DNA of 64,000 bases, from contig OX597825.1 in NCBI GenBank assembly GCA_951406725.2, positions 27,218,001 through 27,282,000 on the forward strand. Reading direction: 5' to 3'. This document shows, one piece after another, positions 3,741 to 63,812 of this stretch. The translations under genes and the position numbers were made by a program. The notes under the pieces are model-generated. The model was not told the origin of the DNA, did no database searches, and saw only the letters and a program-made list of their open reading frames with translations. How positions within the stretch are numbered: position 1 is the first letter of the stretch; each line of letters begins with the position of its first letter. This DNA comes from Octopus vulgaris. Lineage: Eukaryota.

Positions 3741-5344
3741 AAATCGATAATACACACGTGCATATATGCATACGTACATGCACGTATATATATATATATA
3801 TATATATATACGTTCCTACATGTATACATATATATGTATAAATAATTAGAGAAATATGTACGTAGCTGCACAGATATATAGAATGTTAGATGTTTCTGAC
3901 TGAATGACTCTATGTCTACATGTGTGCTGTGTAATTGTACATCTGTGTGCATATATTTCTACATGATTCTCTCATACCTTATTTCCTTTTCACGAACTTA
4001 GGTTCACAGAACGTTACAGTTTAACATGAAACAGTTATTATGTGTCTGTTTCAGAACCATCGCCTGATTAGTTATATACATTTGTTGATATTTTCGTACA
4101 GAAGCCAAGTTAGAATGGCGGTTTCAACAACGCACTCAGGCACTAAGATATACACACCCATACACGCACAGATATATATATATATATACACCTCCATACA
4201 CACACTTACGCACACACGTACGCACTCTCGCATATACGTGTATGTGCATGTGTGTTTGTGTGTCTACACTCATGTTATATGTATATATATTTTTAATGTA
4301 CTACTTCTGTGTTTCGATATGGATCTACACATAGCATTGTTTGTTTACTAGCATTGTTTATCTCAAGTTTATTCAGTGCTTTAAAGGTTTGCGTCTTTGT
4401 ATTCATTTGAAAACGAGAACTTTTACATTTGCCTTTATATTCTTGTATACTATTATTCCTGCCATACTGTGGGCGTATTTCATATTGTATTTCATTCAAT
4501 AAATCCTTTTGACGATATTTCTATCTTGATATAGCCAGCATGTGTATGCTTCGTGTAATACTTCTAATGTACCTTACAAAGCTTTGTTGGATTTGTATTA
4601 TTACTTCGTTCTTTTATTGTGTTTTACCATTTCTATAACTATTTTATCCATGCAGCATTGTTTTCTTCTATTCATAGCTTTTTTGTAATGTTCTATTTGT
4701 AGATGAGAACCTGAAGCCACATTACGGGAGATATATCACAATTGGCGGTTATTAAGATGTACAAATTTAGTGAGAATACATATAAGTCCTTCAATCATAG
4801 TCTTTGTACGCCTATGTGTATGGAAATTTATTAACTTTCTGACTAAATATTTTGAATACGGATCTGTTTCGATGTCATTATGTGGAAAATATCAACTTTA
4901 CTTCCATGAGTGCCTGTATTGACTAATCGCATTGTCAGATACTTAGCTTTGGATATATTTTCCAATTCCTCGCTAATCATTTCAGACGTATAGTGCTTGT
5001 CCATAATAAGGCGCATGGTACCCGCATCCTTGATGGGACTTGTTGCAATATATCAAGAATGGCAATTATTCTAAGATTAAGAAGAGCTTTTCACAAAACA
5101 TTCAGCAAAATTTCTTTTTTCTCGTTAATTGTTAAAATGCGTATGTGGACTTTGATTTTAAAAGAAAATGTTTCGAATAAAGTAATGATTTCTTTCTCTT
5201 TTTTTGTGTATGTGTGCATATTTTCGTCTGCAGAAGAAGAACGTACGGACGAAACGCTTGACACTTTAAATATCTATAGCAAATCAGCCCGTTGGACTAC
5301 TCCACATTATACTTTATACGAAATACATGCATCGAAAATATCTG

Positions 5345-7202: not shown

Positions 7203-7988
7203 AGACAGCGACCTGAGAGAACAGTTAGGAGACATAATAAAATACTCTGCGGCATTTCGTAGGTCTTAACGTTCTGAGTTCAAATGTCGCTGAGGTCGAC
7301 TTTACTTTTCCTTCATTTGGGGGTCAGTAAATTATTTTATTCTTTTGTCTGCTGCAGTCATCTTCACTCAGACCAGGCTGGAGCACCGCATTTAGTCGAA
7401 TAACCGACCACGGGTATTATTCTTTGTAAACTTAGTACTTATTCTATCGGACAGTTTTGCTGAACCGCTAAGTTACAGGGACGTAAAAACACTAACATCG
7501 GAATTGCAACAATTCCCATCAAGGATGCGTGTACCATGCGCCTTATTAAGTACAAGTACAATACGTCTGCAATGATTAGCAAGGAATTGGAAAATATATC
7601 CAAATCTAAGTATCCCACAATGGGATTAGTCTATACAGGCACTCACGGAAGTAAAGTTGAGATTTTCAAAATAATGATGTTAGTGTTTTTACGTCCATGT
7701 ATGGCGATGGCGGGTGGGGGGACAAACACACACACACACAAACGTTTACACAATATATATGACGGGCTTCTTTCAGTTCCTATCTACCTAATCCACTCAA
7801 AATACTTTGGTCAGCTCGAGGTTAAAGTAGAAGACACTTGCCCAAGGTGCCACGTAGTGGGAGTGAACCCGGAACCATGTTGTTGATAAGAAAAATACTT
7901 ACTACGCAGCCACTCTGGGGTCGAAGTAATTGACTTAGCCACTACTTCGCCATTCCTCGATTTGTGCGAAAATTCGAGACCAGTATTT
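7203..7988 (+). mobile_element. Old SINE family A copy (7203-7333 and 7916-7988) split by a SINE B insertion
   Basis: The 5' half has 'gttctgagttcaaat..gaggtcgacttt'. The 3' half, 'ctggggtcgaagtaattgactt', resumes after the SINE B copy. Confidence 0.7.
7336..7915 (-). mobile_element. SINE family B copy carrying a ~200 bp internal insertion
   Basis: Reverse-complement match to the copies at 15127 and 36698, interrupted at 7500-7700. Confidence 0.85.
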
Positions 7989-8342: not shown

Positions 8343-8720
8343 TTTACTTGCCCGTCGATGCGACGGAGACCATCTAGTCATCCTGGGATGGGGGGTATTC
8401 TTGTTTTGTGAGTCCGCAGATGGCTAGTGAGGCCACTCTGCGCCCGAAAGAGTCTTTCACAGTGTGGACAGGGAATGGTAGCCCCTGCTACAGGGTTGTT
8501 AGCTCTGTTCTTCCTTATCTACGGTCTTCTGCAGCAGCGACCCTGTTAGTCTCGCGTGTGTTGGCACCTTTGTGGACAGCTGATCGCCACCCTTCTTTGT
8601 CCAGAGCAGACTGCTCCCAAGTGTCATGGTTGATGTTGAAGGCTTTCAGTGTGTCCTTAAAGCGCTTCTTCTGGCCACCTTGTGAGCGCTTTCCCTTTTG
8701 CAGCTCGCCAAACAGCAATC
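8343..8720 (-). mobile_element. RTE-clade LINE, 3' fragment
   Basis: LLFGELQKGKRSQGGQKKRFKDTLK..TWEQSALDKEGWRSAV and C-terminal CPHCERLFRAQSGLTSHLRTH, followed by a short 3' UTR with a hairpin. Confidence 0.9.
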
Positions 8721-10193
8721 CTATATATACATATATGTAATGTATATATCTGTGCATGTGTGTGTGTGTGTGCATTATATACGAGTATATATGTGTATAT
8801 ATATTTGTGAGTGTGTGTATGTGTGTGTGTACAAGTGTATATAAAACTATGAATACATGAGTACCTTGGTGGTTCATTTATTTATTTATTTATTTGCCTG
8901 TCGGAATTAAGGAATTCTTTACTCTTCAGACTTCTACTTTGCAGCATCCATCTTCTCTACGATATACAAGTAACTTCGCTTCTCTCAGTGAATCCAACTC
9001 TTAGAGTCTCTTTTTCTAGATATCTTGGGTATTAACTTATTGACAATAATTAATTTTATTTTGTTTTTTTTAAACTCTACTTCAAAAATCTTCCTACTTA
9101 GATAATAGATATAATATTATTTATCGAGATTGCTTTATACAAAACTAATATCAGTAGCAAAAATAGTTTTTCTTCTTCTTTCAAAGCAGACATCAATCAA
9201 TAATTTATACGTATACGGCGAAAAATATTGAAACACCATTATTTAAATTTAGGTTCTTCCTCTGTATTTCTGCATTTATTTTCTATTTTAACCTTCTTTG
9301 CACGACTCGTGTTATACCACATTTTTAACTACCAATTAGTGGCTCAAATTACTGCCTCAGGAATTCAATGCCGAGTGAAACAAACACCATATTTTAAAAT
9401 TCATTTTTAAATGAAATATTATTTACTCATCTATAATAGCCTGGAGTATATATTTTATCTCACAGCTGTCATTGTGGCGAATAACATCTCTCTCTAAGAC
9501 ACAAATGCGTTCATTATTACTCTTTCTGTCTCTCTGTTCCCCTATCTATTTCTCTCTCTCTCTCTCTCTCGCTTTTATTTGAACAATGTGAAACCTTTGT
9601 AAGTTTTCGCCAGATGAAAAGGTGTCGCCTTTGGACTTCCTTAATGGATATTAACGATGTGAAACAGCATCATAGAGATGGGCTTGAATGGACTCTATTC
9701 TTGGTTACTATACACTTTATTTTCTATATTTCTTTTCTTGCATTTTTATATATTTATATTATTTTAGCTCCATTGTTTTAAATTCTTAGTCACCTTTATT
9801 ATGCATTATTTTATCCGATATATTTTTCTACATTCGACTTCATTCCTATTACACTTTTAGGTTTCATCACCTTTTATTCGTGGCCACTTTTAATATACGT
9901 GGTAGCATTGTCACGAGTTCAAATCATTGAACAAAATTATAATGTGTTCTTTAGAAAGTGGCTAGGCCTACCTCGGATATTGAGCAGTTCAGCTCTTTGT
10001 CGTAAAAGAGGCTCGTTGCAGTAACCACTGGCGTCAATAGTCGAGATATATAAACTGGGGAAGGTAAGAACGGTGATGAAGCTGAAAGATTCGAAGGGCA
10101 TGGAAATCAGGTGTAATCCACCTGAGGTGAAAACATCCAGGAAGTGGAAAGCAGAAGCAGGTGCTGATAATATCCTGTCTTCTCTTACATACC

Positions 10194-10420
10194 TATTTCT
10201 TTATTACCCATAAGGGGCTAAATACAGAGGGGACAAACAAGGACAGACATAGGTATTAAGTCGATTACATCGACCCCAGTGCGTAACTGGTACTTAATTT
10301 ATCGACCCCGAAAGGATGAAAGGCAAAGTCGACCTCGGCGGAATTTGAACTCACAACGTAACGCAGACGAAATACCGCTAAGCATTTCGCCCGGCGTGCT
10401 AACGTTTCTGCCAGCTCTCC
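10194..10420 (-). mobile_element. SINE family A, young copy with 17-bp TSD
   Basis: tRNA-like head and core 'gcctttcatcctttcggggtcgataaa'. TSD gtcttctcttacatacc at 10177-10193 and 10421-10437. Confidence 0.93.
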
Positions 10421-10855
10421 GTCTTCTCTTACATACCGAGATATGGTGGGTGCAGTGCAAATTCATCGGAAGGGACTTGGTTTTGGCGCAGAATAGTTCC
10501 GACCGTTTGCAAGTATGATGCTGAGCGATCGCAGATCTGTTGTTAACAACAGCGTCAAAACGGAGGAAGCAGAGAGAAGAGAGCTTCATTTGACCCAATG
10601 TATTCAACAAGGACAAATGACAGGATGGGAGGAGCATGTTGTGGAGAGGAAAATAAGTTGGGATGAAATATGGAAGTGGACCACATCTTCGGCTAAGATT
10701 TTTGATTCGTTTATCCTATGATGTTTTGCAATGACCTACAAATCTAGTAACGTGGAACGTCTCAGAGAATGATATAGGCAAATTCGGAAAGGTCGGTACA
10801 CTGAAACATATTCTTTCCAACTGTTCACTATCATTGAACAGGTATACATGGAGAA

Positions 10856-11073
10856 GGCGGCGAGCTGGCAGAAACGTTAGCACGCCGTAGCCGTATTTCG
10901 TCTGCCGTTAAGTTCTGAGTTCAGATTCCACCGAGGTTGACTTTGCCTTTCATCCTTTCGGGGTCGATTAAATAAGCACCGGTTACGCACTTGGGCCGTG
11001 TAATCGACTTAATCCATGTATCTGTCCTTGTTTGTCTCCTCTGTATTTAACCCCTTGTGGGTAGTAAAGAAAT
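10856..11073 (+). mobile_element. SINE family A, young copy with 15-bp TSD
   Basis: Head ggcggcgagctggcagaaacgttagc. TSD aggtatacatggaga at 10840-10854 and 11074-11088. Confidence 0.93.
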
Positions 11074-11529
11074 AGGTATACATGGAGACACAACCTGGTC
11101 CTTAAGGTTATCTTCAATGCTATAAGAATGGAGAATTAACATATGCTATAAGTGGCCGCTGAGGACATTATAAATACAACAACCAAACATGTAAACAAGC
11201 ATCATGCGAAGGAAGGCACTATGGCTAAGAGGAGACTACCGTTAAGGGGAGGTAATGGCTAGGGCATTGACTTTACATTAGATAAATGTCATATTAAGTA
11301 TATCTTCTGAAATAACAGCCATAGTACCCAAGCGGTGATCTTAATAGACAAACGGTAATTGTTTAAACATCTCTAAATACAGTTATCCTAGTGGCCCTAT
11401 GAGAAGGCATAAGTACAAATCCCCAAAATAATTAAATGATTACAATTAAATCACTGTCACATTCTAATTAGTATTACAGTTACAGATAGAGGGTATTGCT
11501 ACAGTTTGCTCAATCATACTTAATATATT

Positions 11530-12627: not shown

Positions 12628-13640
12628 TCTGCACACAGAGTTCAATATTTATACAGACAAGCATCGGTGTGCAATCGTCGTATATATGAACGTGGGTGTG
12701 TTTCTATGGTATGTGTGTTTGCACGATTGTATATATGAATGCATGTCCGTATGAGTGTATGAGAGTATGTGTTTCTGTATATGTGTGTAAAGGGTGTATT
12801 TGTGACGCTGTGGGGTTGAGTATATGAAAGTTTGCGTAAGTTGTAGACATGTTTGTGCTTATGTTTAAGCAGTTAATTATAGTCGCACAAATTTCGAGGA
12901 AGAAAATAAAGTGTGGTTAAAATTTACTAGGAGACAATGCAAATGAGATAATCAGATCGGTATTTGCACATAAGCCATTCCAGCACTGATTAGAATGTAA
13001 TTAGATTTACTTTCAACACAACTCACCAATCAAACACTTAAACCTATACTTTAATATCAGTAGACATATATTTCAAAACCGGGGAATAGAAATTGTTATA
13101 CAGATGATTGATTCTCGTGTTAACGATGATTGCGTTAAAGTTCTTTCCTAATTTCGTTTGATACTCTAACTTAAATTAGTGTGTGTTTAACTTAGATTTC
13201 CTTAACTATGCATTTTCTTCTTCAGCAGATATTGCTCATATTACATATTGGAATATTAACGTTAACCAGAGATGAAAGATGGTGGTTTTCTTTTTCCTAC
13301 ATTACATTCAACTCTAATGAATTAATTTAGTTTCTCTACTTCTGTTATAACTTTTCTTTTCTTCTCAGTGCAAACATTCGACTGAAGCGTCTCTTAACCA
13401 ATTCAGTCACCCCATTACGTTACAAATACTTATTTTATTCACATTAGAAGAAGAACACGTAATACTAAAACAAAAAAATCTATCTGTTAATATGTTAAAA
13501 TATAGACCAACAGGGACCTTATCTAAATGATTGTAGATAAGGACAAATCGTTTGTCCCGGGGAGACGAATGAAGTTGCAGGCACGATATGTTCGTTTCAT
13601 CTCGTGTAAAAGGGATGTTTTTTTTTGGGGGGGGGTTTAA

Positions 13641-13875
13641 GGCGGCGAGCTGGCAGAAACGTTAGCGCGCCGGGCGAAATGCTTAGCGGTATTTCGTCTT
13701 CCGCTACGTTCTGAGTTCAAATTCCGCCGAGGTCGACTTTGCCTTTCATCCTTTCGGGGTCGATAAAATAAGTACCAGTTACGCACTGGGGTCGATGTAA
13801 TCGACTTAATCCGTTTGTCTGTCCTTGTTTGTCCTCTCTGTGTTTAGCCCCTTGTGGGTAGTAAAGAAATAGGTA
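13641..13875 (+). mobile_element. SINE family A, near-intact copy
   Basis: Closely matches the copies at 10194 and 10856 along its full length. Confidence 0.93.
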
Positions 13876-15126
13876 TATTTTTGAATTTCAATTGAGACAA
13901 ATGAGTGATTTAAGGGGCAATGGATTGTAAATATAATTAAGTTTAGATTTGTTTGACTTTGATGACTTAGGGGTAATAGAAGATGGGAAGAGGGAGTGCT
14001 TGAGGCTGGCTACTGGAAGTAGTTTTTGGTAGTGTTGACGTTGGATCTGTGGTAGTGTGAGAGAGAAAAAGGAGTGGTTGAGGTCGGTCACTGTGAATAG
14101 TAGCAGTAGTGGTGTTGGTGTTGAGTCAGTTCTGTTAGAGTGGCTTAGAGGTTCTTGTTGCTGTGGTTGTCCTTGTAGTTGTTGTTGGAACTATGTTAGT
14201 TGTTATTGTAGATGTGCTTGGTTTTCTACTGATGATATTGTGGTTGTTGTAGACTACTTTTGATTTTTTTGTCAGTTCGGATTTATATTCGTTATTCTAA
14301 ATTATGTCGAAATGGAAGAAGGTAGTTACGTAAATTTTCTTAAGTTTGTGCAACAACACGAATATAGGTAACAACAGTGAATGAAATAAAATATTTAGTT
14401 TGCGGAGTTACTTATGAGCATAGACGAGTATATTCGTGTACGTAACAAATTTGCAAATGTAGTTAAAATATTGTTTTAATTTCTGTGTATATGTTTATGG
14501 AAATATTATGTTCACGGTACAAAATATCGATAAGTCTAAAGAATTCAAGTGTCCAAAACAAGACATATATTTTCAGTTTAATATCACTCCCAGATGAAGT
14601 TAAACAACTGGAATGAGTTTTGTGTAGCTCAAAATATAGCTAAGGAGCAAACCTCAAATATCATTTTGAATTTGTTCCAAGCACTCATACTAGTTTTAAG
14701 CTTCAGTTCAAACATTTTTTTCCAAAAATATCGATGAAAGAAGAAACAAGCATTTTACAAAGCCGTTTCTGTGTAGTAGTTATTAGATTGTGATTTGTCT
14801 AACACAAAATCGCATCTTCTGTCATATTTTCATCTAGATGTTATTAAGTTACAGTCAAATGGATTGTTAAAAGTCATAGAACACAGCGAAGAACAAAACG
14901 TAATGGAATTTCATAAATGGCTCGCAGACAAAATACAGCTGCTTGAAAAATTCTTTGTTTGGAGATGAATTTCCGAACTGGGTAAAACTGAGAGAAAAAG
15001 CAAAGAAAAACACATTTTAATGATCGAATTATATTTATATCGTTTTTATGCTATTGTAAAATTATAAGGTTTTTTATAGCCTGTTTCGATTATATTTTCG
15101 ACAAGAAATGGGTAAATAGTTTTTGT

Positions 15127-15537
15127 GGAGTAGCTGTGTGGTAAGTAGCTTGCTTACCAACCACATGGTTCCGGGTTCAGTCCCACTGCGTGGCATCTTG
15201 GGCAAGTGTCTTCTGCTATAGCCCCAGGCCGACCAATGCCTTGTGAGTGGATTTGGTTGACGGAAACTGAAAGAAGCCTGTCGTATATATGTATATATAT
15301 ATATGTGTGTGTGTACGTGTTTGTGTGCCTGTGTTTGTCCCCCCAACATTGCTTGATAACCGATGCTGGTGTGTTTATGTCTCCGTAACTTAGCGGTTTG
15401 GCAAAAGAGACCGATAGAATAAGTACTGGGCTTACAAAGAATAAGTCCCGGAGTCGATTTGCTCGTCTAAAGGCAGTGCTCCAGCATGGCCACAGTCAAA
15501 TGACTGAAACAAGTATAAGAGTATAAGAGTATAAGAG
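15127..15537 (+). mobile_element. SINE family B (tRNA head, CORE-like segment, internal TA/TG tract, (TATAAGAG)n tail)
   Basis: A/B-box-like head 'tagctgtgtggtaag..gggttcagtccc', then 'cttgggcaagt'. Multiple copies occur in the window. Confidence 0.93.
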
Positions 15538-16794: not shown

Positions 16795-18020
16795 CACTGT
16801 CGATCATTTTAACTGATATATTTACCAAAAATAAATAAAAGTATCTTGAAATATTAAAGATTAACTTTATTCAATAAAATCGCCATTAGCTTCCACCACG
16901 ACCTCCACTCCACTTCGGAATCTCCTGCAACTCTTCTAGACGGTCTCCTTGTTTAATTTGGTGAATGCTATAATAATCCTTTCCTTCAGTTCATCTTTGG
17001 TGTAACAAGGAGTTTTGTTGTTCTCTCGCTCAATAATAATGAAGGGATGTGCAGTGTGATGCGTTAGGTGGCCAGATGTTAGGGGTGATATGGTCACAGA
17101 AATTGACTGATAGCTTTGACTGAGTGTTCCTGTTTGAGTGACATGGTGCAGAGTCTTGTTGCTAGACATAGGGTCTTTCAGCAGTCGCCCTCTTCACCCA
17201 GAGCAGCACTACCTCGTTCAGGCACTTCATGTAGACCTCCGTCTTGAGTGTGAGACCGTGTGAGAAGACAAATGCAAATATAACGTCACCATCACTAGTT
17301 ATGACTGCAAACACCATTTTGTTGGCTGGATGATTGCTTTTTATCACATGCGGTATATATATTTTGGGGATATGGCAAGCTAACGGTTGTTCTGTGTCTT
17401 CACCATCTAACCCTGGCAGAAATTCTTCTCGTCTCAGAAAAACCAAAGCATGTTCGATTGGAGGGGTTGCTTGAGTTTGTTCAAAAGCTTTGTAGCACGG
17501 TCTTGTCTCTTGTTCATCATAGCTTGGGATAAAAATTTGCCCTTCCTCACGTTGTATGAGGAATATCGAATGTTTTCATGCATTACCTGTCTGATAAGAA
17601 ACTCAGATACTGCCATGTCCTCGGCAATGGACGTGATTAACTTTGAGGGATCGTTACCAATCATGGCCTTAATCTCCCCAACAAATTCAGGAGTGTTTCT
17701 CTTAGAAAGATCGAAATGTGTTTTCTGATCCGCCGTACCTTCATAACAAAAATTAGATTTATCCAGCTCTTTCCGAAATCTCTTCACTGTCCTCAGATTG
17801 ACACTCAAACACTATGAAATATTTGTATTGGAGATTCCTGTGCGAATGCTTGGTAGTACAGAATGTTGTTCCCAAATTCCTGGCACAGGAAAGTGCATAA
17901 TGGTGTTCTTGTTTTTACTCACAGACGGTGCCCAACTGACCGTACTATAATGTGTAGTAGACAAACTCAAAATGAAACAAGGCGCTTACGTGAAATTAAA
18001 AATATAAAATGGAGACAATA
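16795..18020 (-). mobile_element. Decayed Tc1/mariner-superfamily transposon, maT (DD37D)-like
   Basis: Fragments from ~17898 to 16867: NLRTVKR, WFF(S)DEKNFCQ, MVFAVITSDG, PYV*QQDSAPCH, WPPN, CRRFRSGVEVVVEANGDFIE*. The ends are approximate. Confidence 0.85.
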
Positions 18021-26557: not shown

Positions 26558-26943
26558 GGAGGCGCAATGGCCAAATATACAGGGCAGCGGACTCGCGGTC
26601 GTAGGATCGCGGTTTCGATTCCCAGACCGGGCGTTGTGAGTGTTTATTGAGCGAAAACACCAAAAGCTCCACGAGGCTCCAGCAGGGGATGGTGGTGATC
26701 CCTGCTGTACTCTTTCACCACAACTTTCTCTCACTCTTACTTCCTGTTTCTGTTGTACCTTGTATTTCGAAGGGCCGGCCTTGTCACTCTCTGTGTCACG
26801 CTGAATATCCCCGAGAAATACGTTAAGGGTACACGTGTCTGTGGAGTGCTCAGCCACTTACACGTTAATTTCACGAGTAGGCTGTTCCGTTGATCGGATC
26901 AACCGGAACCCTCGTCGTCGTAACCGACGGAGTGCTTCCATCC
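26558..26943 (+). mobile_element. SINE family C (tRNA-Arg-like head) with 10-bp TSD
   Basis: Head ggaggcgcaatggcc..ggactcgcggtc..gtttcgattccc. TSD atatcaacga at 26545-26554 and 26944-26953. Confidence 0.92.
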
Positions 26944-28732
26944 ATATCAACGAATAAATCGCTAAATAACTTTAACCTAAGCACATAAATCTCAGAAACA
27001 TGCATGGAATGTTGGTGGTCCGTCTCTCCCACTGATACTCACGTAATTTAGCAGCTTCATTATATGGATACGTGTACCAACTGGGATAGAAATAATCAGG
27101 AATAATCTTATAGCAGAAGTCGGACGAATAATAAGACAGGATAAAAGGTGTAATTTAAATGGTGGGTACTAGTGAAAATTTGAAAGGTTTCCTGAGATAA
27201 CAAATGCAATGAGGTAGTACAAGAAAAAATAGACTGCATTTGCAAAGAATTTAACAAAAAAATGTAATAAATGCGATTGCTGGGTTCATGAGACAAAATC
27301 GAAACAGAGTAAAAGAGACATTCAATATTCGGTTGGCCACTCTTAATAATAGGTTGAAGTGTTTGGAATATAGATTTAACGGCAATTGAAATGCTTCTGA
27401 ATTGGTGTTTGTTTATCCTTCAGGCAAATGGCATTTGTTGGCGTATGTTTAGAGCTCCGAAAATTAGCCGAGGGCACTTTCAGCTAAGCGGAAGAGGGCG
27501 TAGGACAAAATAACCTAGGAATTACTTGGGAATCGTTAATTTCCCTAAATTTACGGGGTAGGTGAAAATAATTTGAAGTGAATTAGTGAATTAATGATTT
27601 CATAAAATATTAAATTAGTAAAATTGTTGTGTAGATAGCGAAATGGAAAAAATATAGGAAAGGCAATAAAAATAGGTTACTAGCAAAGACTACTAAAATT
27701 GAAGTTTTGGGGGTTGTAGAGATTGTTGACAAGGAAAATAAGAATAAATATGGAGGAAATTAGATAATTGTCATCCACTTAATGAATACAAAATGAGACT
27801 AATACAGCGATGTATAGAAGTTATGAAAATAACACACGAGTAGTACAATGGTAAGTGCGTAATAGCAGCGTTTTAAGTAGACAAATTACTTAAATTTTAA
27901 ACGTAATAGTCGACACAGTACAACAAACAGTTTTTAAAATCTCAGTTGCATAATATTTTTTCTAATTCTTACGGTTTTTAACCTACTAAATTGAAATCTG
28001 AAAACGGTTATGTTCTACATGCTCTAAGTTTCATGCAAATTCAAATTTTGCATTCTAGCTACTTGCGGTCAAATTAATTAATTAAACGCTTATGTTATCA
28101 ACAAAGATATTAAAATTATTTTCATTCTGTTTCAGATTTGATCATGGCTACAAAGAGACTTCAAATATATATATATATTTGTCGACTGGTGAGCGTAATT
28201 AGGATATTAAATAAATGGCAAATTAATAAGAAATGATGTAATCAACTTCATTGGCTCACTGCAGTTTCTGCTATGAGGTGCAATCTAATCATGACTGAGG
28301 ACTTATAACATCGTCGGATTCACAGATTCCGTTTAAGCAGTTGACAATGGAGTGCATGGCATTGACAAGTTTCAATAGAGGCAAAACGCGTCTGTGATCT
28401 TGTGAGTCGCTATGTCAACGATGTCCGTCACTGGAATATTTCTTTTTAAATCAAAATCCCACCTTAATCAAGTTCAACTGCCATTTGTTTGTAACTACGC
28501 TCATACGCGTCTCCTATATATCAATGTATGTTTTAATTGTATTGCAGAATATGTGAAAAATTAACGTAGTTGCGAAGAAAATTACGTTTATCATACAAAA
28601 CACGATAAAATTATGTAGCATGACTGTATGCTTGCCATCCACTACATGTTTCTGCTCTTCGTATATTTCCTCTTTATGTCGTCTATTAGAAAAATAATAA
28701 ATATTATCTATGAATTCCTCCACTGTACATAG

Positions 28733-28926
28733 AAAACTATCAGTACATAAACATAAAATTCACCAACATTTTACCGAATGAGGTTGTTATGCTAAAATAC
28801 AAATACAGACACACTCATACGCTTTGTGTATATGAATGAGTGCCAGTATGCGTGTGTGACTGTATATACGGGGAGTAAATATGTATTGTGTAGAGGAGTA
28901 AAAGGAAAGGAGAACCAAACAGACTG
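28733..28926 (+). repeat. ~194-bp local duplication, copy 1
   Basis: Ungapped, roughly 90% identical by eye to 30172-30365. Confidence 0.92.
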
Positions 28927-30002
28927 TTCATTACTTTATTATGGATTGACTTTATTGTCGAAGGCATATCTCCATTAATTGTTAGCACCTGAGGAAATGC
29001 CTTAGCATGCTACTTTTCATTGTATTTACCTTAAAGTATATTCATTAACTTTTCCTATTTTTAGATTTGAATTCAAAATTACATGTAATTGTACAGAACA
29101 AAACTCTTTTACTAAGGGGTGAATGGCTGATTATTATTTCACGTATCTATATATGGATGCGATATTTATCATAGATGTAATTGTCCAAGCAGAATGGTTG
29201 CTTAATCTAGATTTTAAACGAAATATGAAAGGTTGTTCACCTGTTGGTTGTCTGAGAAAATATGATAAGCACTTTGTTTGAATGGATTTAACTGAACGTA
29301 GAATGAAGTGCTTGTATAAAAACATTCTATTTTAGAATATTTAAACTCTCAGTGTCTAGGAGCGATCTGGATTCCGTTTAAATTATTCAGGCGCATTAAA
29401 TGAAATTATTTTGCTCAAACTGAAAGTCAAGTATGAAACGGAAATATATCCTTCTTAGTGGATATAAGTGTTAACATCGACACACAAGAAAGTATTAGTC
29501 ATCTTATTTTATTTTCCTTTGGATAGATATAAATCCATTGTAAAAACGTAACACGGACAAAATTCTTGATAAATATAACCATACAAAAATGTAGTCGAGA
29601 CTCAATAACTGGAGTATAATTCGAGATGATGATGTGAGGGACCTGCTTCTCGTAGTATTTCTATATCCTGGATAATATATTTCTACAATACAACATTTGA
29701 AATGTGTGGTTTAGGTTGTATTTAATTATGTGTTTTTTTATTTAATATTTTCTTAAATATTTGTTTACGCGAAATGCGTATTCAAATCACAAATACGATA
29801 TGTAATAAATGGGTTTTATCAGAAACAGACAATATACGTCAAATGGTACGATTAGAAATGGCTCACCTTTAAAACCGTCTAATAAATATATTCCGATATG
29901 TGAACTGTGTGCAGTTGTTGATAAAAAGAATTACTTTTATTGTCTTCATCCATATAGACAAATATATGTGTATGTGAGAGGAGTGAGAATTGAGTACGTA
30001 TG

Positions 30003-30056
30003 CATATATATATATATATATATATACACGCACACACATACATATATACATATATA

Positions 30057-30108
<52 letters not shown>

Positions 30109-30118
30109 CATAAATATA

Positions 30119-30153
<35 letters not shown>
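30003..30153. repeat. (TA)n-rich microsatellite
   Basis: Seen directly in the sequence. Confidence 0.95.
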
Positions 30154-30156
<3 letters not shown>

Positions 30157-30171
30157 TTGTTAAAGAAATGG

Positions 30172-30365
30172 AAAACTATCGGGACATAAATATAAAATTT
30201 ACCAACATTTTACCGAATGAGGTTATTATGCTAATATACAAACACAGACACACTCATACGCTTTGTATATATGAATGAGTGCAAGTATGCGTGTGTGACT
30301 GTATATACGGGGAGTAAATATATATTGTGTAGAGGAGTAAAAAGAAAGAAGAGCCAAACAGACTG
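30172..30365 (+). repeat. ~194-bp local duplication, copy 2
   Basis: Matches 28733-28926. Confidence 0.92.
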
Positions 30366-31124
30366 CAATCTGGCTGCAAGTTTGTTGAACCTTAATTCTG
30401 CTATCTTGATTACAATCATATATCAACCTCTCTGGAATTATTGGCAGGCTTCTACGTCCTTTTTTTCAATAAAGTTAAACCAGCAGCATAAAGTTTATCT
30501 GTCACAGAAAAACCATTATTTATCTTATCATATATTATCACCTGAAGTATAAGCGTTTTCTGGTTTTATATCTTTCCATGCCCAAACTTATCATTAAACA
30601 ATAAAAGGGATTTCTCTGTTTGGCACTAAGCCATAACTGTTATTGGGTATAGGAAATTTAAACGGCTCAATTACCCTGTGACGTGTGCATGAATTGTATC
30701 GTCCAAATGACCTAAAGCCATAGAAAACTGGGTAGAATTTGAGCTCAGAATAGAAACCTAATACATATAGCAATTGGGTTTTTTAACGTAGGCACAAGGC
30801 CGGAATTCTGGCTGAGTTATAACAATTGAGTATTGAATTTGTAATTATTTTATCATGACAGGATACATGGCGTTTACAGTCGTAGAGCGCTAATAGCGAT
30901 TACTGGACCCCACAGCTGACGCTCTGATAAACCTCCCATGCACCACCCATACTGAAATATTACTAACTCTGGCAAACAGAAAGAAGCTATCATTTAGTGA
31001 ATGTATAATCAATTTCTCAGAATGAGAATAATGATTCATGTAAATATTCTCTTCCACTGATTTATGGAAAACAAAGTAATATCGAGAATTATTAAAACAA
31101 TCTAAGATGTCGAGCAAATTAACT

Positions 31125-31300
31125 ACCGGTATTTCGTCCTCTTTACGTTCAGAGTTCAAATTCCGTAGAGGTCGATTTTTGCTTTTCATCCTTTCGGTGT
31201 CGATAAAAAGGGGAACCAGTTGACCAGCAATAGGGGCCCATGTAATAGATTCGAACCCTCCCCGAATAGTTGGTTTTGTGCCAAAATATTAAACCTTACA
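31125..31300 (+). mobile_element. Old partial SINE A with alternative tail
   Basis: 'ggtatttcgtc..gagttcaaattccg..gaggtcga..ttttcatcctttcgg.gtcgataaa'. Confidence 0.75.
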
Positions 31301-31323
31301 ATGCAACGAACTATACACACAGG

Positions 31324-31368
<45 letters not shown>

Positions 31369-31784
31369 AGGTACATTTGTCACACATACGTACATACAGG
31401 TACATTTGTCATTTCAACAGATGCAGTTCATTTAGTTCAAGTGGGCAATCTCTATATGACATTTAAATCTTGTACATTGTTGAAAGTCATCTCACTTGCG
31501 GTTTTCGTCTCAGGTAAACATCAATTATTGACGTTTAGGGTTTGAAAAGAAGCAGACATATGTCAACAGCAGACGAAATTTGGCCAGCAGTGGCAGTGAT
31601 ATTGATAAATTCAGATTCTAAATTCTTTGTTCTTCACCAGAGCTGGCATCGCATGCTAAGTGAGAAGTGGTCACATCTATGGAGGAGATAGAGAAGAGAT
31701 TAAACCATTCTACGCTGGCGATATCACTTTAGTGATGCAAATGCTTATAATTTTTTGTTCTTTCTCTCCAAACAAAGATCACTT

Positions 31785-31863
<79 letters not shown>

Positions 31864-31991
31864 ATTTCTTTCTCCATAGTAAACATTCCTACTGGCTTGA
31901 GTAAATTGAATTATGCTAATGCAATCAAGTAAACCGAATCTTCGAAATCTCTTGCCCGTAATCAGACAATACTCTGTCATGTCATCTAAAG

Positions 31992-32307
31992 CAGTGGTCC
32001 TCAACCATGTTTTTTTTACCAATGGAACCCCTTTATTCCTATTGTACTTCACTGGACTCCCATAGTCATTCGATGTTAAAAAAAAAACATAATATTTTTA
32101 TTGATGAAATTTATTATGACGTGTATTAAAAATTGTTAAAATAGTTCGCGTATGGTGGATGTATAACATATTTATTGCGCATAACCTTTACAGGTCTGCA
32201 GCACAGTTTTTTCATGGCCCGTGAAAAATTACCATGGACACCCAATTTACCATATTGCATCGATGGACCTCCCAAAATCTTATACGGATCTCGTTTGAGA
32301 AACCTCG
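31992..32307. mobile_element. Non-autonomous hAT (Charlie-like) MITE
   Basis: TIRs cagtggtcctcaacc and degenerate gtttgagaaacctcg. Perfect 8-bp TSD atctaaag at 31984-31991 and 32308-32315. Confidence 0.85.
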
Positions 32308-33259
32308 ATCTAAAGGATTATAAAAAATGAATTGTTCCTTATGTTAACATGTTTGACAATTGCCTCTAGTTTTATACGTTTTTGTTTAGGTTTCATTCAA
32401 CAAATTCATATCAAATTTAAAGCACGTGGCATTCTTTACGTCATTCTTAATATAATTATGTACACGCATACGCTTGCGTGTTTGTTGGAGTGTATGGTGA
32501 TACGATGTTTGAATAATTAATCGTGTTTACAACGACATGTAAACTTAGACAAAGTCGATTATGCATCCATGCATTTATGCTACAATACTCAGTAAATAAA
32601 TCTAAATCCATATATATTGGATCATTGTTTGCGCATATATTGTACGTGTGCATTCAGTATTTCCTACTACATACGTGTTGGAAAACAACGAACAGGTCTA
32701 ATGTCAGCTTATATTTCTTAATATTTTATTAGCATTTGCTCCCAGCATCGATATATTTCTGTCATTCGAGTCATGAAACGTGACTCTTTTCTTAGTAATT
32801 ATTTTCATCCTACGTAATCTAATTTTTAATTTTGTATTCATACTAATACACAACATTGTTCATCAACGAGATATTTTACAGCATATCAACGCCATAAACA
32901 CTCACATATGTTGGAACATTTTACTTGCACGCAGCTATATAATACACGTATGAACATATCCTACAACAATATGTATGGTTTATACAGTGTAATAGACATT
33001 TCTAATACAAGCAACAACTCCTTGTGATCTCTACAATTAGAACCCGTGATGATTTAAAACTTCGAAAGTGTTAAGAGGTCAAGAGTCATACTGATTTGCA
33101 GTGTTGTTTCCATCTGCATGCGTTCACTGGTTGAACTTCGAAGGTGTTGATTTTGCATTCAATCAGTTTTAGGTCGATCAAATAATCATCATGCTATTGT
33201 TTACTGGACTTCCATAACTTGTTATTTTCAGACATTCATTCCGAGTTTAGTCTCTATCC

Positions 33260-33282
33260 CCCTCTCGCTCTCTCTCTTTCTT

Positions 33283-33314
<32 letters not shown>

Positions 33315-33346
33315 GCATATACAAAATGTGTGCTTTAATGTGTATG

Positions 33347-33411
<65 letters not shown>

Positions 33412-33482
33412 GGTATGTATGTAATTTTATGTATATGTATGTATATGTATATATGTGTATATATATATATGTGCATATTTAA

Positions 33483-33519
<37 letters not shown>

Positions 33520-33553
33520 TATCTACATGTATATGTACATATTTATATGCATA

Positions 33554-33600
<47 letters not shown>

Positions 33601-33633
33601 ATGTATGTATATAAAGATGTATATAAATATATA
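33260..33633. repeat. (CT)n and compound (TA)/(TATG) microsatellite
   Basis: Seen directly in the sequence. Confidence 0.95.
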
Positions 33634-33777
33634 TGAGCACTATGTATAAGAGCAGAGAGAGAGCGTAAGTAATAGGCAAGGAGTTGAAAATAACACTCAG
33701 TCTCGTTGGGCAAAGTTTATACATGCTGCGGAGAACTGAAACATTACGTTGTCATTCGAATTTCATATTTGCATCAC

Positions 33778-34090
33778 GGTACAGGTGTGATTACGTGGTA
33801 AGACGTTTGCTGCCCAAGCACATGATTCTTGGTTCAGTTGCACACAGTTGAAACTTGGGCATGTATCTTCTACAGTGACCTCAGAGCTCCAAGCCATGGC
33901 GCTTGGGTTTGGTAGAGGTGAAGTGACAGAAGCCCGTGTGTGTATGTATGTAAATTATTCCTGTTTTGTGTCTCTCTAGGTTCCATACCACCACAGCTTA
34001 ACTGTTGGTATGTTTACATCCCTGTAACATCGGTTCGGCAAGAGACCATTGGAATATGTACCACGTTTAAACAGAATAGTACTAGGATGG
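33778..34090 (+). mobile_element. Old SINE B copy
   Basis: Diverged head 'gtggtaag..ggttcagtt..cttgggca', plus 'agaagcccgt' and 'cggttcggcaagagacc'. Confidence 0.75.
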
Positions 34091-34241
34091 ACGCCTAGAT
34101 GTTAACTATACTGATTTTATTGCCAATCCTTTGGAAATCGAATAAATATCATTGTTAAAATTTACAGAAAACAAAAGACGAAGAGAGTTGTGTGGACAGC
34201 AAGCAGTTACAATAGTTTGACGCTTGGGAAAGGGAGAAAGG

Positions 34242-34277
34242 TTTTTACGTTTCGAGCTTATGCTCTTCAACAGAAAA
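34242..34277 (-). ncRNA. Minimal hammerhead-ribozyme-like motif with one core mismatch; probable Penelope-like pLTR relic
   Basis: Minus strand reads tttt-CTGTTGA-a-gagc-ataa-gctc-GAAAC-GTA-aaaa. Confidence 0.55.
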
Positions 34278-35070: not shown

Positions 35071-35395
35071 TATATATATGTAAGATTAATCAGCCGAAAT
35101 TGCGAGGTTGATCTGGTTCTTGACTGAAGATTAGAGGCTTCGAATGACCCGTCCGTTTTTTGTATCGTCTATTTGAATGTTTTGCGTTCTTGTCCCATTT
35201 TGTATTTTTAAATATATTTTTTATACATATATTATTGGGGCGTACGTACACCTTGTTCTCTTATATGTATGTAAGCATTCCCCTATATATATATATATAT
35301 ATACAGAAAATTGGCTAAAAGCTGAATCAGGGAACGCACTAAAGGAGAGTAAATCGTCATTCAGACTATATTGGATGTGATGTGTTTGCGTGTAT

Positions 35396-35431
<36 letters not shown>

Positions 35432-36236: not shown

Positions 36237-36302
<66 letters not shown>

Positions 36303-42403: not shown

Positions 42404-43689
42404 GATGTGAGATGATTAAATAGAGGGAAATAGTAGAGATCAATATAAGGAGTTATTTTGGAAAAGGATGGAAATAAGAAGTGTAAAGGGAAATAAGAGA
42501 ATAAAAGTAAACATAAAAATATATGCAGGATGTTACAGTTGCAGTTTCTTTATCCAAGGGAAGTGGTTTGTAGAAATGCTTCTTATCCATGGTATGTAAA
42601 TAGGAGTTCATATTTTGTCATTCCAAATGGAAAGTATGGAGATGCAGATTCCATGTGATGTTCATTCAAAAGGGTCTTGTGGAGTGTGTCCGTCATATTT
42701 TCAACCCTCTTCTGTAGATCGTACTGCAATTTGCAGGAGTTGCTTTCGTTAAGATATATTGGTTTCATCACACACAATCTCTGGATGTGTGAGTTTTGTT
42801 ATTATTCTGGTTGTGTCCTGCTGTTCGGTGACACAGACTCTTTAGCCATTCTTCATCAGGAGTTTTCGGATTTATATTGAATGTTCTTTTAATTTCGTCT
42901 CTTACGTAGACCAGGCAAGGACAAATGGGTGGGAATCAGTTATGACTCACAAATAGGCTTCTATCCTCTGTAGCTTTGTGGGGCATGGACCCGCTAGGTG
43001 TCGTACTTTTCTTCTAAATCAAGAAAAAATAGACGCTCTAAAATCCTACAAACCAAGCTGTTCGAATATGCAATGACGGTGTCAACTAAGCATATATAAG
43101 CTCACTCTCATGTACATACATACATACATATATGCACGCACACACACACATGCTGTAATATATTCATACATATATAGAGTTAGTCTTTTGTGGACTACAT
43201 TAGAGATGAGATTAAAAGGATATACAATAAATGAAATGACGAAGGAACAAAGAATATCACAGCATACAATTCCACAATCGCCTGATGAAGAAATGCTATA
43301 GAATCTGTTTCACCGAAGTTCAGGGAATTATTAGACCAATAACAAACCCACACATCCAGGGATTACTTGTTTTGAAACAAGTACATTTTAACGAAAACAA
43401 CTCGTTGCGGTCCGCAGTACGAGCCGTATAAAGTGATTAGAAATATGACTGGCACACTGTATACAGTCCTTATTTTAGTTCCTATCTAAACAGGGGTCTC
43501 ATTAGAATAATATTATAGATGATCACAATTCCGAAACCTCTTATTGAAGAATGGGTATGCAATATGTTCAATAAAAAAATCCACACAAATAGGGATAACG
43601 TGTTTTGTAAAGAAAAAGTTTCTTAGAAATGCCTTCTAAAACGGACATAACCTAAAATTTTTGTGGGAGCTGTAAATCGATTATAAGGA

Positions 43690-43746
43690 TCCCTAGTGCA
43701 AAACTGGTATTTATTATTTTCCCTAGTGCAAAACTGGTACTTATTA
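43690..43746. repeat. 30-bp tandem duplication
   Basis: tccctagtgcaaaactggta(t/c)ttatta occurs twice. Confidence 0.9.
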
Positions 43747-44620
43747 GCAGCTAGGAAAGGATGTACAATAGAGTCGACCTCCATAGATGTTGAACTCGAA
43801 CTATAATACGAGTGACGCAACACGGCTAAGCAATTTGTTCGCCATACTAACAATTATACTAACTCACCGCTTAACAGTATAATGTGTGTAACGAGTAGCA
43901 CATATAGATGAGTTGCTACAGACAACAAAAATGTTATTATAATCAAAATAAGCATAACGGAGGTTAAAAAGAAAGATAAACACCTTTCGAGAGGTAATCT
44001 TAGACGACATACTGTGCAAATAATGCACCACAGCTGTTTGCACAGCATCTGCCGGCGAGGCACCGATGCACGATGGGTCGAAACGATGGTGGGGATTAAT
44101 AAAGAATGCCGAGAATTTAATTTTCGTTATCTTTTTATCATATATATATATATATATGATATATTTCCTTTATCGACATAATATTCCTATAAATCTAGAA
44201 ATGCTAGGGAAATTTGCCTCTTATATTTTCGATCAAGCGACATCGAAAATTATAAAAGCCAATCAGCATATCCACATTTATATAGACAATGAGTCATAAG
44301 ATTCTAATCCAGAAACGTACGTCCATAATTAACCGAAGACTTTGTGATTTCATTATTTGTCTTCTTTTTTTGCTATATGTGAGTTACAAATATTGTTTTC
44401 TGTGGAGACTTATTTTTGTAGTAACAGGAAATAGTAGTCTTTTGGCTGCTATTTCTAAAATTTTCGGTGTGTGGTTTAAGCAACTTGTTGCAAAAAAAAC
44501 CCTTATTATTGTAATTATATAAATTTTTACCGAATATGGTCCTTTTCCATACCGAAATACTAGGTGGAATTTGTTGATTTTATAAAATTAATTATATTTC
44601 ACCCTATATCTGTAATGACC

Positions 44621-60070: not shown

Positions 60071-61278
60071 ATGTTTCTTTATTAGCCACACAGGGCTGCA
60101 CACAGATAGAACAAATTACAAGGTAGAGCTTTTCTTTTGAAGGTTTAAGAAAAAAAAAAAAAAAAAGGAAGGGGGAGTTTCGATCAAAAGGGATCGTAAA
60201 AGGAGAGAAAGAGGACAAAAAAAGGGGGGGTTTAAAAAAAGGGGGGAGGAAAAAAATTGATCAATAGGGATCGTTATCACAGAAATGTCAATGTGAAGTG
60301 TAAAGGGGAAGACAGGTGAGGTTTACCCGTGCAAAGAAAAGCCTACGGAAAAGACCACGGTAACCTCGGTCAATGATGTCACATTTTATATTTCTTTTTT
60401 TTTTTTTTGCAAATAAGCAACTCTCTGTTTTCGATTTCTGGGTTCATAGGACTATGCTCAAGGTGGCTTCGTCATTCATACGTGCCATTCTTGCTACATT
60501 CACCCATCTTTTTTTAAAACATTCGCTAGACAAAACTTGCCTCTCTACTCTCACTTTCCTTTTCAAGTGGTACTTGAAGAAGTTGATGAGAGATTGACCA
60601 GAGAGGAAAGTGTTTGTCTCCAATCCTTTCAGACGCGTCCACCAGATACATTCTTTCGCCATAGCCACAAGGATGATGAAAATAGCTCTTCCTTCCCGTT
60701 TGAAGGAAAGAGGCGTGACAATATTGACGATAGACTCAGCTGATAAACCGACTCGTCCCACACGTGACAGCAGTTGTTCGACATAAGCCCACAGGTCGGA
60801 AATTGTTGGACACTGAACGAGTGCGTGCAGAACGGTTTCGTCGCTCTGACCGCATCTCGGGCAGGTCGGCCCCGTGTTTCTCGAGCCGTGTCTGTAGAGC
60901 TTATCCCGAACGGGTAGCGCTTCTCGGTAGCACTGCCAGGCCAGGGATCTCTGGAAGTTGTCCATGGGCCCTGGCCCGAAAGTCGTCCTGAACAGGCGGG
61001 TCAGGTACTCCTCGTCGACGTCCAGGTTCGCCCCGAGCTCGTCGTCGTACCTCCCCTCCACTAAACCCCTATAGAATGCTTTGGTTGTGTTGAAGTCACT
61101 TAAGGTCGACCCAGGACGGCAGAGTTGCTTGAGAGCAACGCGACACTCGCGGTGCCATTCGCCCTTCCTCGGCCTCTTTTTGATCCACGACTGCAGTTCG
61201 GTCATGGAGACGAGCTGCGGGAAAGCGTGCCTCACAAACGGCGACCACACCTGTTCACCGTCGTCTACATAGAGCCAG
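60071..61278 (-). mobile_element. 5'-truncated Tx1/L1-clade LINE inserted in (GATA)n
   Basis: Uninterrupted ORF2 C-terminus from ~61278 to 60444 with a zf-RVT-like segment (AWQCYREALPVRDKL..CPRCGQSDETVLHALVQCP..W). It has a ~370-nt 3' UTR ending aataaagaaacat and is GC-rich relative to the flanks. Confidence 0.9.
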
Positions 61279-63598: not shown

Positions 63599-63812
63599 GG
63601 TGGTGAACTGCAGAAATCGTCAGCACGCTGGACAAAATGCTTAGCGCTATATCGTCCGTCTATACATTCTCTGTTTCCAAACCTCTTAAGTCGAATTCGC
63701 CTTACATCCTTTCGGGATTAATGAAATAAGTACCTGTTGATTATCGGAGCAATTTAATCGACTAAAATCCAATCCCAGTATTTCTAGCCTGGTGTCTATT
63801 GTAGCAAGATTA
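63599..63812 (+). mobile_element. Old SINE A with alternative tail
   Basis: 'ggtggtgaactgcagaaatcgtcagcacgctggacaaaatgcttagc..gccttacatcctttcggg'. Confidence 0.75.

What the first reader, a model, noticed from the sequence alone, without database searches (positions are those of the whole stretch)
13828..13869. SINE A shares its 3' tail with the Tx1-like LINE: candidate Tx1-driven tRNA SINE
Seen: SINE tttgtcctctctgtgtttagccccttgtgggtagtaaagaaa versus LINE end (minus, 60115 to 60074) tttgttctatctgtgtgcagccctgtgtggctaataaagaaa. They are 34/42 identical and ungapped, both at the extreme 3' end, and both keep a small hairpin (gccc/gggt versus agcc/ggct). The 10194 copy also retains aataaa. Known: L1-clade partners usually recognise poly(A) rather than a shared tail, and I recall few tail-sharing Tx1 SINEs. 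Inference: SINE A is mobilised by this Tx1 family or a sister family, which fits its 15-17 bp TSDs and target bias.
Basis: partly seen in the sequence, partly recalled or inferred. Interest (0 to 1): 0.8.

Follow-up and report, generated by a model that had tools for sequence, protein, structure and literature searches.

The report
Octopus SINE carries L1/Tx1 LINE tail
A short repeat in a probable octopus genome ends in the same 44-letter tail, without poly(A), as a nearby L1/Tx1-type jumping gene, so it is likely copied by a close relative of that gene which would recognise the tail itself, a pairing I found in print only for plants and a green alga.

Summary
The tails match at 34/42 ungapped; the next-best site in the window gives 26/42, and 0 of 1000 shuffles reach 34. 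SINE and LINE end in register without poly(A). The LINE is a 5'-truncated L1/Tx1-type fragment in a (TATC)n tract; Tx1 proper was not tested. Two of three SINE copies have 17- and 14/15-bp duplications starting at GGTAT, apparently present before insertion. Three older relatives keep head and body but not this tail, suggesting tail capture. The LINE's target differs from GGTAT and its tail differs at 8 fixed positions, so the driver is more likely a sister family. The hairpin is compatible with the sequences but unsupported by energy or covariation. That the tail is the family's normal end rests on one copy and one contig length. Ten paper searches found no animal L1/Tx1 tail-sharing SINE; Repbase, Dfam and SINEBase were unavailable. 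This scan noted the same pairing before, on other DNA.

The parts
13640..13871 (+). SINE A copy 1 (232 nt), the copy named in the finding; followed by GGTAT and a T5 run at 13878; no clear target duplication
13828..13871 (+). 3' tail shared with the LINE end (35/44); may begin at 13823 across a 3-nt gap
13651..13661 (+). A-box-like motif of a Pol III internal promoter (inferred)
   Evidence: no Rfam or ARAGORN tRNA call
13713..13725 (+). imperfect B-box-like motif, judged by eye; the regular expression did not score it
13688..13692 (+). GGTAT inside the SINE head, the same 5-mer that begins both target duplications (present in 2 of 3 young copies)
10194..10420 (-). SINE A copy 2; 5' boundary uncertain by about 4 nt through microhomology; retains AATAAA
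10421..10437 (-). 5' copy of the 17-bp target duplication of copy 2
10177..10193 (-). 3' copy of the 17-bp target duplication of copy 2
10855..11074 (+). SINE A copy 3, with an 11-nt deletion in the head
10840..10854 (+). 5' copy of the 15-bp (14 without the shared A) target duplication of copy 3
11074..11088 (+). 3' copy of the target duplication of copy 3
60072..61278 (-). 5'-truncated L1/Tx1-type LINE inserted in a (TATC)n tract; 5' junction uncertain by a few bases
60444..61262 (-). ORF2 C-terminal end with zf-RVT; 66% identical to residues 644-912 of P0003; stop at 60446-60444
60072..60443 (-). LINE 3' UTR (372 nt), pyrimidine-rich with a T tract, no poly(A)
60072..60115 (-). LINE 3' tail matching the SINE tail
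31124..31249 (+). older relative of SINE A: head and body, without this tail
63610..63738 (+). older relative of SINE A without this tail (a further head-only piece at 63831-63948)
43673..43835 (-). older relative of SINE A without this tail

Best explanation
SINE A is a short repeat whose last 44 bases match the poly(A)-less 3' end of an L1/Tx1-type LINE, and it is likely copied in trans by a sister family of that LINE, predicted to recognise the tail and to insert at GGTAT sites. Shown: the shared terminal tail, the lack of poly(A), 17- and 14/15-bp duplications that both start at GGTAT, and older relatives with the same head and body but without this tail. Inferred steps: (1) Pol III transcribes the SINE from its A/B-box-like head and, with no T4 run inside the element, runs into the flank. 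(2) The tail was captured from an L1/Tx1-lineage RNA by template switch at about 13812-13827. (3) ORF2 of a sister family binds the tail, probably as a small interrupted stem-loop, nicks the target and primes reverse transcription there. (4) The GGTAT bias comes from that endonuclease, from pairing of read-through GGUAU RNA with the nicked end, or both; two sites cannot separate these.
For: Tail identity and shuffles. Both ends in register. L1/Tx1 protein evidence. Duplications. Each duplication reads in one frame of a decayed ORF on both sides of the insertion, which supports the boundaries and suggests GGTAT was in the target beforehand. GGTAT occurs at 99 of 128,000 strand positions, so a second site matching the first by chance has p about 8e-4, before allowing for slack and for choosing the motif after the fact. 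Older relatives: 67-72% over head and body, 34-43% over the tail. The LINE family is abundant and includes near-identical copies (10,998 of 39,727 laid contigs at 99% or more in run X1). One low-depth contig of 1114 nt aligns over 996 nt down to 60181 and has 118 nt left, against 107-109 nt to the tail end. Pairs 10-16/34-40 can form in 4 of 4 tails, with two one-sided changes. Precedent for stringent tail recognition: PMC4176376, PMC3472496.
Against: Only one LINE end was read, and the 118 leftover letters of the contig were not shown. The partner family itself was not found: five collection scans for the LINE protein or SINE body and one for the tail pattern returned nothing. The fold has no energetic or covariation support: z -0.5 to -1.6, 0 two-sided changes in the ungapped alignment, and the lower stem is absent from the minimum-energy fold of copy 1. 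Copy 1 has no duplication. The two duplicated sites lie 650 bp apart in one host element. tRNA origin of the head was not confirmed. Tx1 membership was not tested by phylogeny.
Confidence: 0.62

Rival explanations
1. This very TATC-associated LINE family is the partner; its endonuclease is loose enough to cut at GGTAT, or the SINE RNA's own 3' end selects GGTAT sites by pairing.
For: It is the only other carrier of the tail in the window. It is abundant with young copies. Its duplication can be read as about 17 bp plus repeat slippage (ambiguous).
Against: The target differs (TATC against GGTAT). The tails differ at 8 positions fixed in 3 of 3 SINE copies, while the LINE has many copies at 99% or more. 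None of the 3 young SINE copies is in a TATC tract.
Confidence: 0.14
2. The tail is a relic of origin only: SINE A took it from an L1/Tx1 element (or from a non-autonomous derivative), but is mobilised in a relaxed way that does not need this sequence or fold.
For: No covariation or stability signal. The top stem is out of register. The tail is no better conserved among SINE copies (38/42) than the whole element (90-94%). SINEU is thought to be moved by Tx1-Mar with no shared tail found for SINEU-1 (PMC4494074).
Against: There is no poly(A) to serve as the relaxed signal. Both elements end at the same base. The shared part is limited to the last 44-50 nt, the size seen in stringent pairs (about 45-50 nt in maize; PMC3472496, PMC3747384).
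Confidence: 0.14
3. The tail is not the LINE family's own end: a 5'-truncated SINE-type piece was inserted at, or transduced onto, the end of this one LINE copy.
For: Only one LINE end was read; the read alignment gave no cover over the tail.
Against: The LINE tail is 71-81% identical to SINE copies that are 90% identical to each other. It is followed by TATC repeats, not GGTAT, and has no separate duplication. The contig length fits a family end here.
Confidence: 0.06
4. Chance or convergent similarity of T-rich, AATAAA-like ends.
For: The tail is short and T/A-rich; 8 of the matches are the terminal TAAAGAAA, which occurs 12 times in the window.
Against: 0/1000 shuffles reach 34/42; the next-best real site is 26/42; the one strong match in 64 kb falls exactly at a LINE terminus.
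Confidence: 0.03

Closest known systems
Maize/sorghum ZmSINE2 and ZmSINE3 with LINE1-1_ZM; Chlamydomonas SINEX-3_CR with L1-1_CR (Ohshima 2012, PMC3472496, part 1 of 3 read; Ohshima 2013, PMC3747384, passages and Table 1 read)
   Same: A SINE shares a short 3' end (about 45-50 nt in maize, about 80 nt in the alga) with an L1-clade LINE; a hairpin is proposed.
   Different: Those are plant or algal; they end in (T)n or (A)n; the maize hairpin has compensatory changes and -10.8 to -17.7 kcal/mol. Here the host is an animal, there is no terminal repeat, the fold is weaker (-4.7 to -6.9) and unsupported, and insertion sites are biased to GGTAT.
Crocodilian SINEU with Tx1-Mar (Kojima 2015, PMC4494074, parts 1-4 of 5 read)
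   Same: A SINE is thought to be moved by a Tx1 LINE, with shared target preference; the SINEU-3 duplication is 16 bp.
   Different: SINEU has U1/U2 heads and poly(A), and no LINE sharing the SINEU-1 3' end was found. Here the link is the shared tail, the head is tRNA-like, and the neighbouring LINE has a different target.
Microsatellite-targeting Tx1 families: Kibi (TC)n, Koshi (TTC)n, crocodilian (TTCC)n/(TTTC)n families (as described in PMC4494074)
   Same: An L1/Tx1-type LINE sits inside a short tandem repeat.
   Different: The repeat is (TATC)n; there is only one insertion in this window; placement in Tx1 was not tested.
Stringent pairs of the L2/CR1/RTE clades, e.g. UnaSINE/UnaL2, ZfL2-1 and ZfL2-2 (PMC4176376, passages)
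   Same: The proposed mechanism: ORF2 binds a 3' stem-loop shared with the SINE.
   Different: Different LINE clade; binding is shown there and untested here.
Octopus tRNA-derived SINEs OK, OR1, OR2 (Ohshima and Okada 1994; not seen; OR2 cited as a CORE-SINE in PMC4758252 and PMC5804259; the names OK and OR1 are recalled)
   Same: Probably the same animal group; SINE A may be one of these or a relative.
   Different: I saw no partner LINE given for them in the passages and table read.

Membership tests
SINE | short, interspersed, multi-copy, non-coding | tested here: met
   About 230 nt; 3 copies 90-94% identical on both strands, plus older relatives
SINE | target-site duplications | tested here: met
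   2 of 3 copies: 17 and 14/15 bp; none for copy 1
tRNA-derived SINE (SINE2) | tRNA-related head with A and B boxes | tested here: inconclusive
   A-box-like motif found, B-box-like by eye only; Rfam at E up to 10 and ARAGORN found no tRNA
tRNA-derived SINE (SINE2) | Pol III transcription | not testable with these tools
   No T4 run inside the 3 copies is compatible, not a test
Stringent SINE/LINE pair | shared 3'-terminal sequence | tested here: met
   30-34/42, in register at both ends; 0/1000 shuffles
Stringent SINE/LINE pair | the shared tail is the consensus end of the LINE family | tested here: inconclusive
   One copy read; one contig with 118 nt left against 107-109 expected, letters not shown
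Stringent SINE/LINE pair | conserved stem-loop with compensatory changes | tested here: inconclusive
   35 of 36 cells pair, 0 two-sided changes, 4 sequences only; z not significant
Stringent SINE/LINE pair | LINE ORF2 binds the tail and mobilises the SINE | not testable with these tools
   needs a binding or retrotransposition assay
L1 group (L1/Tx1) | ORF2 with APE endonuclease, RT and C-terminal zinc motif, closest to L1 | tested here: met
   zf-RVT in the window piece; RT + zf-RVT in P0003 and APE + RT + zf-RVT in its relative P0006; PDB best hit L1 ORF2p E about 1e-50 against R2 1e-24 (the hit list holds only L1 and R2 proteins)
Tx1 clade | RT phylogeny with Tx1L, Kibi, Koshi, Keno | not testable with these tools
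   None of the relatives listed carried a Tx1 or L1 name; no labelled reference sequence was available
Tx1 clade | target-sequence preference | tested here: inconclusive
   One insertion, inside (TATC)n
MetaSINE | 66-bp Meta domain right after the tRNA head | tested here: not met
   By-eye comparison with the BivaMeta-SINE1 and BivaMD-SINE1 consensus printed showed no resemblance; no alignment was run
CORE-, Deu- or Nin-SINE | conserved central domain | tested here: inconclusive
   By eye against bivalve consensus sequences: at most a short motif near BivaCORE-SINE2. Motif searches of four papers' supplements found no relevant match
SINEU | U1/U2-derived head and poly(A) tail | tested here: not met
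   No Rfam match in 13600-13900; no poly(A)

The most novel reading that the evidence does not exclude
An octopod Tx1 lineage recognises its RNA by a folded, poly(A)-less 44-nt tail, the first stringent L1-group SINE/LINE pair in an animal. Sister families keep that tail while switching targets (TATC repeats for one, GGTAT for another). SINE A captured the tail and with it a preference for GGTAT, a motif in its own head, so the SINE would supply landing sites for itself and for its driver.
Probability: 0.33. Interest if true: 0.75.

Novelty: new variant of a known kind. Interest (0 to 1): 0.57.

Why it matters
Whether relaxed, poly(A)-based RNA recognition in L1 arose from a stringent ancestor is an open question, argued so far from three plant and algal pairs (PMC3472496). 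In that paper's tree Tx1 groups with a vertebrate L1 lineage. An animal L1/Tx1 element with a tail-sharing SINE and no poly(A) would give a much nearer comparison, and makes the question testable by swapping a 44-nt tail and the EN-RT linker. It would also name a driver for what may be one of the SINE families that fill about 11.6% of the O. vulgaris assembly, most of it unclassified (PMC13282606). Sister families with one tail and different targets would separate RNA recognition from DNA targeting.

Tried and rejected
Scans for the LINE protein in viral, genome and metagenome contigs, for the SINE body in genome and viral contigs and for a degenerate tail pattern in metagenome contigs all returned 0 loci. 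Laying four runs on the LINE end gave no cover over the tail, so the family's terminal letters remain unread. A covariance model of the four tails found no fifth copy in the window: next hit 13.9 bits, E 0.9. An earlier model had a mis-set structure and was not used. The repeat finder was swamped by microsatellites. The 26/42 site at 51728-51687 and the 16-nt match at 31871-31856 have no SINE or LINE upstream by eye and are treated as chance. A decayed duplication around copy 1 was considered and not counted: it needs several substitutions and two homopolymer changes. MetaSINE membership, my first guess, was rejected by eye. The RTE-like fragment as partner was rejected: score 19 against a shuffle mean of 18. 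SINE family B scored 32, equal to its shuffle maximum, through a TG-rich stretch upstream of the tail, and is not counted as a tail match. Naming the LINE clade from database labels failed. The host element of copies 2 and 3 gave no Pfam or homologue hit. SINEBase supplements could not be read.

Full report
1. Observation. With the three SINE A copies masked, every other position of the window on both strands scores 26 or less. The best window match of 1000 dinucleotide-shuffled tails averaged 24.3 (sd 0.9, max 28), and none reached 34. The other two give 32/42 and 30/42, the majority of the three gives 32/42, and the SINE tails match one another at 38/42. The match continues two bases, so SINE and LINE end in register at 44 columns (35, 33 and 31 of 44). 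A pairwise aligner adds 5 bases upstream across a 3-nt gap; MAFFT did not. A covariance model of the four tails finds no fifth carrier in the window.

2. The SINE. There are three young copies of about 230 nt, 90-94% identical: 13640-13871 (+), 10420-10194 (-) and 10855-11074 (+). The head has an A-box-like motif and, by eye, an imperfect B box 62 nt later. Neither ARAGORN nor Rfam calls it a tRNA, so a tRNA origin is inferred. There is no poly(A) or tandem repeat at the end, and no run of four T inside any copy. Copy 2 has a 17-bp duplication and copy 3 a 15-bp one (14 if the shared A belongs to the SINE); both start at GGTAT. Copy 1 is also followed by GGTAT but has no duplication. Copies 2 and 3 interrupt what looks like one decayed ORF. 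In each case the duplicated bases read in the same frame at the end of the left flank and the start of the right flank. This supports the boundaries and suggests GGTAT was in the target before insertion; the host ORF itself has no database hit. GGTAT occupies 99 of 128,000 strand positions, so a second site matching the first has p about 8e-4. The motif was chosen after the fact, and the two sites are 650 bp apart. The same 5-mer is in the SINE's head at 13688 in 2 of 3 copies; no insertion at that head site is present in this window.

3. Tail capture. Three older relatives align to copy 1 over head and body (113/156, 117/171, 114/170) but not over the last 60 nt (22/57, 26/60, 20/58 in a forced alignment), while the young copies give 54/60 and 53/60 there. 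The simplest reading is that SINE A acquired this tail at about 13812-13827. Tail exchange is described for other SINEs (PMC4824008, PMC5786205). The direction of the swap is inferred only from the greater decay of the older copies, and their 3' parts were not tested as a family.

4. The LINE. 61262-60447 (-) encodes the end of an ORF2 with zf-RVT, 66% identical to residues 644-912 of P0003, so the copy is 5'-truncated. Relatives at 61-70% include an Argonauta hians protein, and an Octopus bimaculoides gene model matches at 83% over 17% of the query. The host is therefore probably an octopod. Longer relatives carry APE, RT and zf-RVT, and the best solved relative is human L1 ORF2p at about 1e-50 against 1e-24 for R2 (only L1 and R2 appear in that list). 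This places it in the L1/Tx1 group. Tx1 proper is likely from the microsatellite site and the short poly(A)-less end (my knowledge, and PMC4494074 for target preference), but no labelled reference was available for a tree. The element is widespread: 19 of 24 listed runs hold half or more of its words, and about 29,000-40,000 contigs were laid in each of three deep runs. After a 372-nt UTR it ends without poly(A) and runs into (TATC)n. The repeat makes the duplication length ambiguous: about 17 bp with slippage, or about 33.

5. Is the tail the family's normal end? Not read directly: one search gave no cover there. One contig of a low-depth run (1114 nt) aligns over its first 996 nt down to 60181 and has 118 nt left, against 107-109 nt to the tail end. 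That fits but shows no letters. The LINE tail is further from the SINE copies than they are from each other, lacks the GGTAT flank and has no separate duplication, which argues against a SINE piece pasted onto this copy. This copy has 6 nt there, which agrees, but I could not check that note's copies.

6. Structure. All four 42-mers fold with the outer three pairs and a 4-bp top stem; three of four also form a middle stem. On the ungapped alignment 35 of 36 cells pair, with two one-sided changes and no two-sided change. The top stem is shifted by one base in the LINE. If realigned by structure, one pair would change on both sides, but that needs two compensating gaps and was judged by eye. Energies of -4.7 to -6.9 kcal/mol are within the shuffle range (z -0.5 to -1.6). 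The hairpin is plausible and unproven.

7. Mechanism. Most likely (0.62), a read-through Pol III transcript is bound at the tail by ORF2 of a sister L1/Tx1 family, which nicks at GGTAT sites, primes there and leaves 14-17-bp duplications. This family as direct partner (0.14) is weakened by the different target and by 8 of 44 positions where all three SINEs differ from it. A relic tail with relaxed mobilisation (0.14) is not excluded, since nothing here shows selection on the tail. A pasted piece (0.06) and chance (0.03) are unlikely. Whether the GGTAT bias comes from the endonuclease or from RNA-DNA pairing is open; Kojima cites cotranscribed target sequence as strengthening targeting in other elements (PMC4494074, part 4).

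8. What is known. Ohshima counted 58 tail-sharing SINEs, three with L1-clade tails, all plant or algal (PMC3472496, part 1 of 3 read). Table 1 of PMC3747384, read whole, has no mollusc row and no animal row that names an L1 or Tx1 partner. SINEU is the one Tx1-driven SINE I found; it is linked by target, has poly(A), and no LINE sharing the SINEU-1 end was found (PMC4494074, parts 1-4 of 5). Kojima's Repbase-wide SINE/LINE comparison has no occurrence of 'Tx1' or 'octopus' in text or supplement (PMC5786205). Octopus repeat papers list L1-Tx1 LINEs and abundant SINEs but, in the passages seen, no partner (PMC13282606, passages and supplement search; PMC8967140, passages). Also seen: PMC4824008 (parts 2-3 of 6; supplement 2, parts 1 and 4 and passages; file 1 not searchable), PMC4758252 and PMC5804259 (passages, supplement term searches; file 1 of PMC4758252 not searchable), PMC3531059 (passages; supplements unavailable and likely to hold the octopus SINE consensus sequences), PMC4176376 and PMC10294476 (passages). 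Ten searches found no description of this pair. The library lacks most subscription papers, including Ohshima and Okada 1994, and Repbase, Dfam and SINEBase could not be searched, so prior annotation is possible.

9. Earlier notes of this scan (AI notes, unchecked). Several report the same tail sharing on other pieces of this genome and in another genome, a TATC-targeting family, a Tx1 family that inserts at one site in the SINE head, and an ORF1-only element with the tail. They led me to look for the target motif in the head. They do not give the site's letters, and one places it in an A box, so equating it with the GGTAT at 13688 is my own untested guess. They are not counted as evidence.

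10. Verdict. A real shared tail between a SINE and an L1/Tx1-type LINE in an animal; a new variant of the known stringent SINE/LINE pair as far as I could search. The partner family, the clade and the role of the fold remain unshown. Interest 0.57.

Noticed in passing
window 10025-11130 (+): Decayed ORF that hosts SINE A copies 2 and 3 in opposite orientations; by recall it resembles the cysteine/histidine end of a restriction-like-endonuclease LINE (HERO/NeSL type). No Pfam or homologue hit.
   Followed up: partly
window 13878-13882: A T5 run 6 nt after the end of SINE copy 1; a Pol III transcript of this copy would stop just after GGUAU, the arrangement a source copy would need for target pairing.
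   Followed up: no
window 31871-31856 (-): 16-nt exact match to the SINE end and flank, followed by (AT)n, with no SINE or LINE upstream by eye; chance or an extremely truncated insertion.
   Followed up: partly
window 15127-15511, 36698-37100, 50090-50480, 58084-58929, 7337-7915: A second SINE-like family of about 400 nt (family B) that shares short motifs with the SINE A body by eye; one copy is split by a long (AT)-type repeat.
   Followed up: partly
window 26558-26941, 34690-35067, 55983-56368: A third SINE-like family of about 385 nt with a tRNA-like head; two copies appear to have short flanking duplications by eye.
   Followed up: no
window 45240-45751: A direct duplicate of about 205 nt (72%) whose second unit holds the only Rfam tRNA match of the window (45550-45616, 31.2 bits).
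   Followed up: no
window 48873-49134 and 57290-57551; 4875-5049 and 7677-7503; 28729-28926 and 30168-30365: Further two-copy repeats at 90-93% identity, unclassified.
   Followed up: no
window 8515-8700 (-) and 17162-17811 (-): An RTE-like ORF end and mariner-like transposase pieces, both named from recall; no Pfam hit for the first.
   Followed up: partly
P0005: A predicted Octopus bimaculoides Rho-GEF protein begins with about 45 residues of this LINE's zinc-finger region, probably a gene-model artefact or exonisation.
   Followed up: no
window 63592-63948: Two older SINE A relatives lie head to tail, the second cut off by an inverted piece (63994-63944 matches 63589-63639).
   Followed up: no
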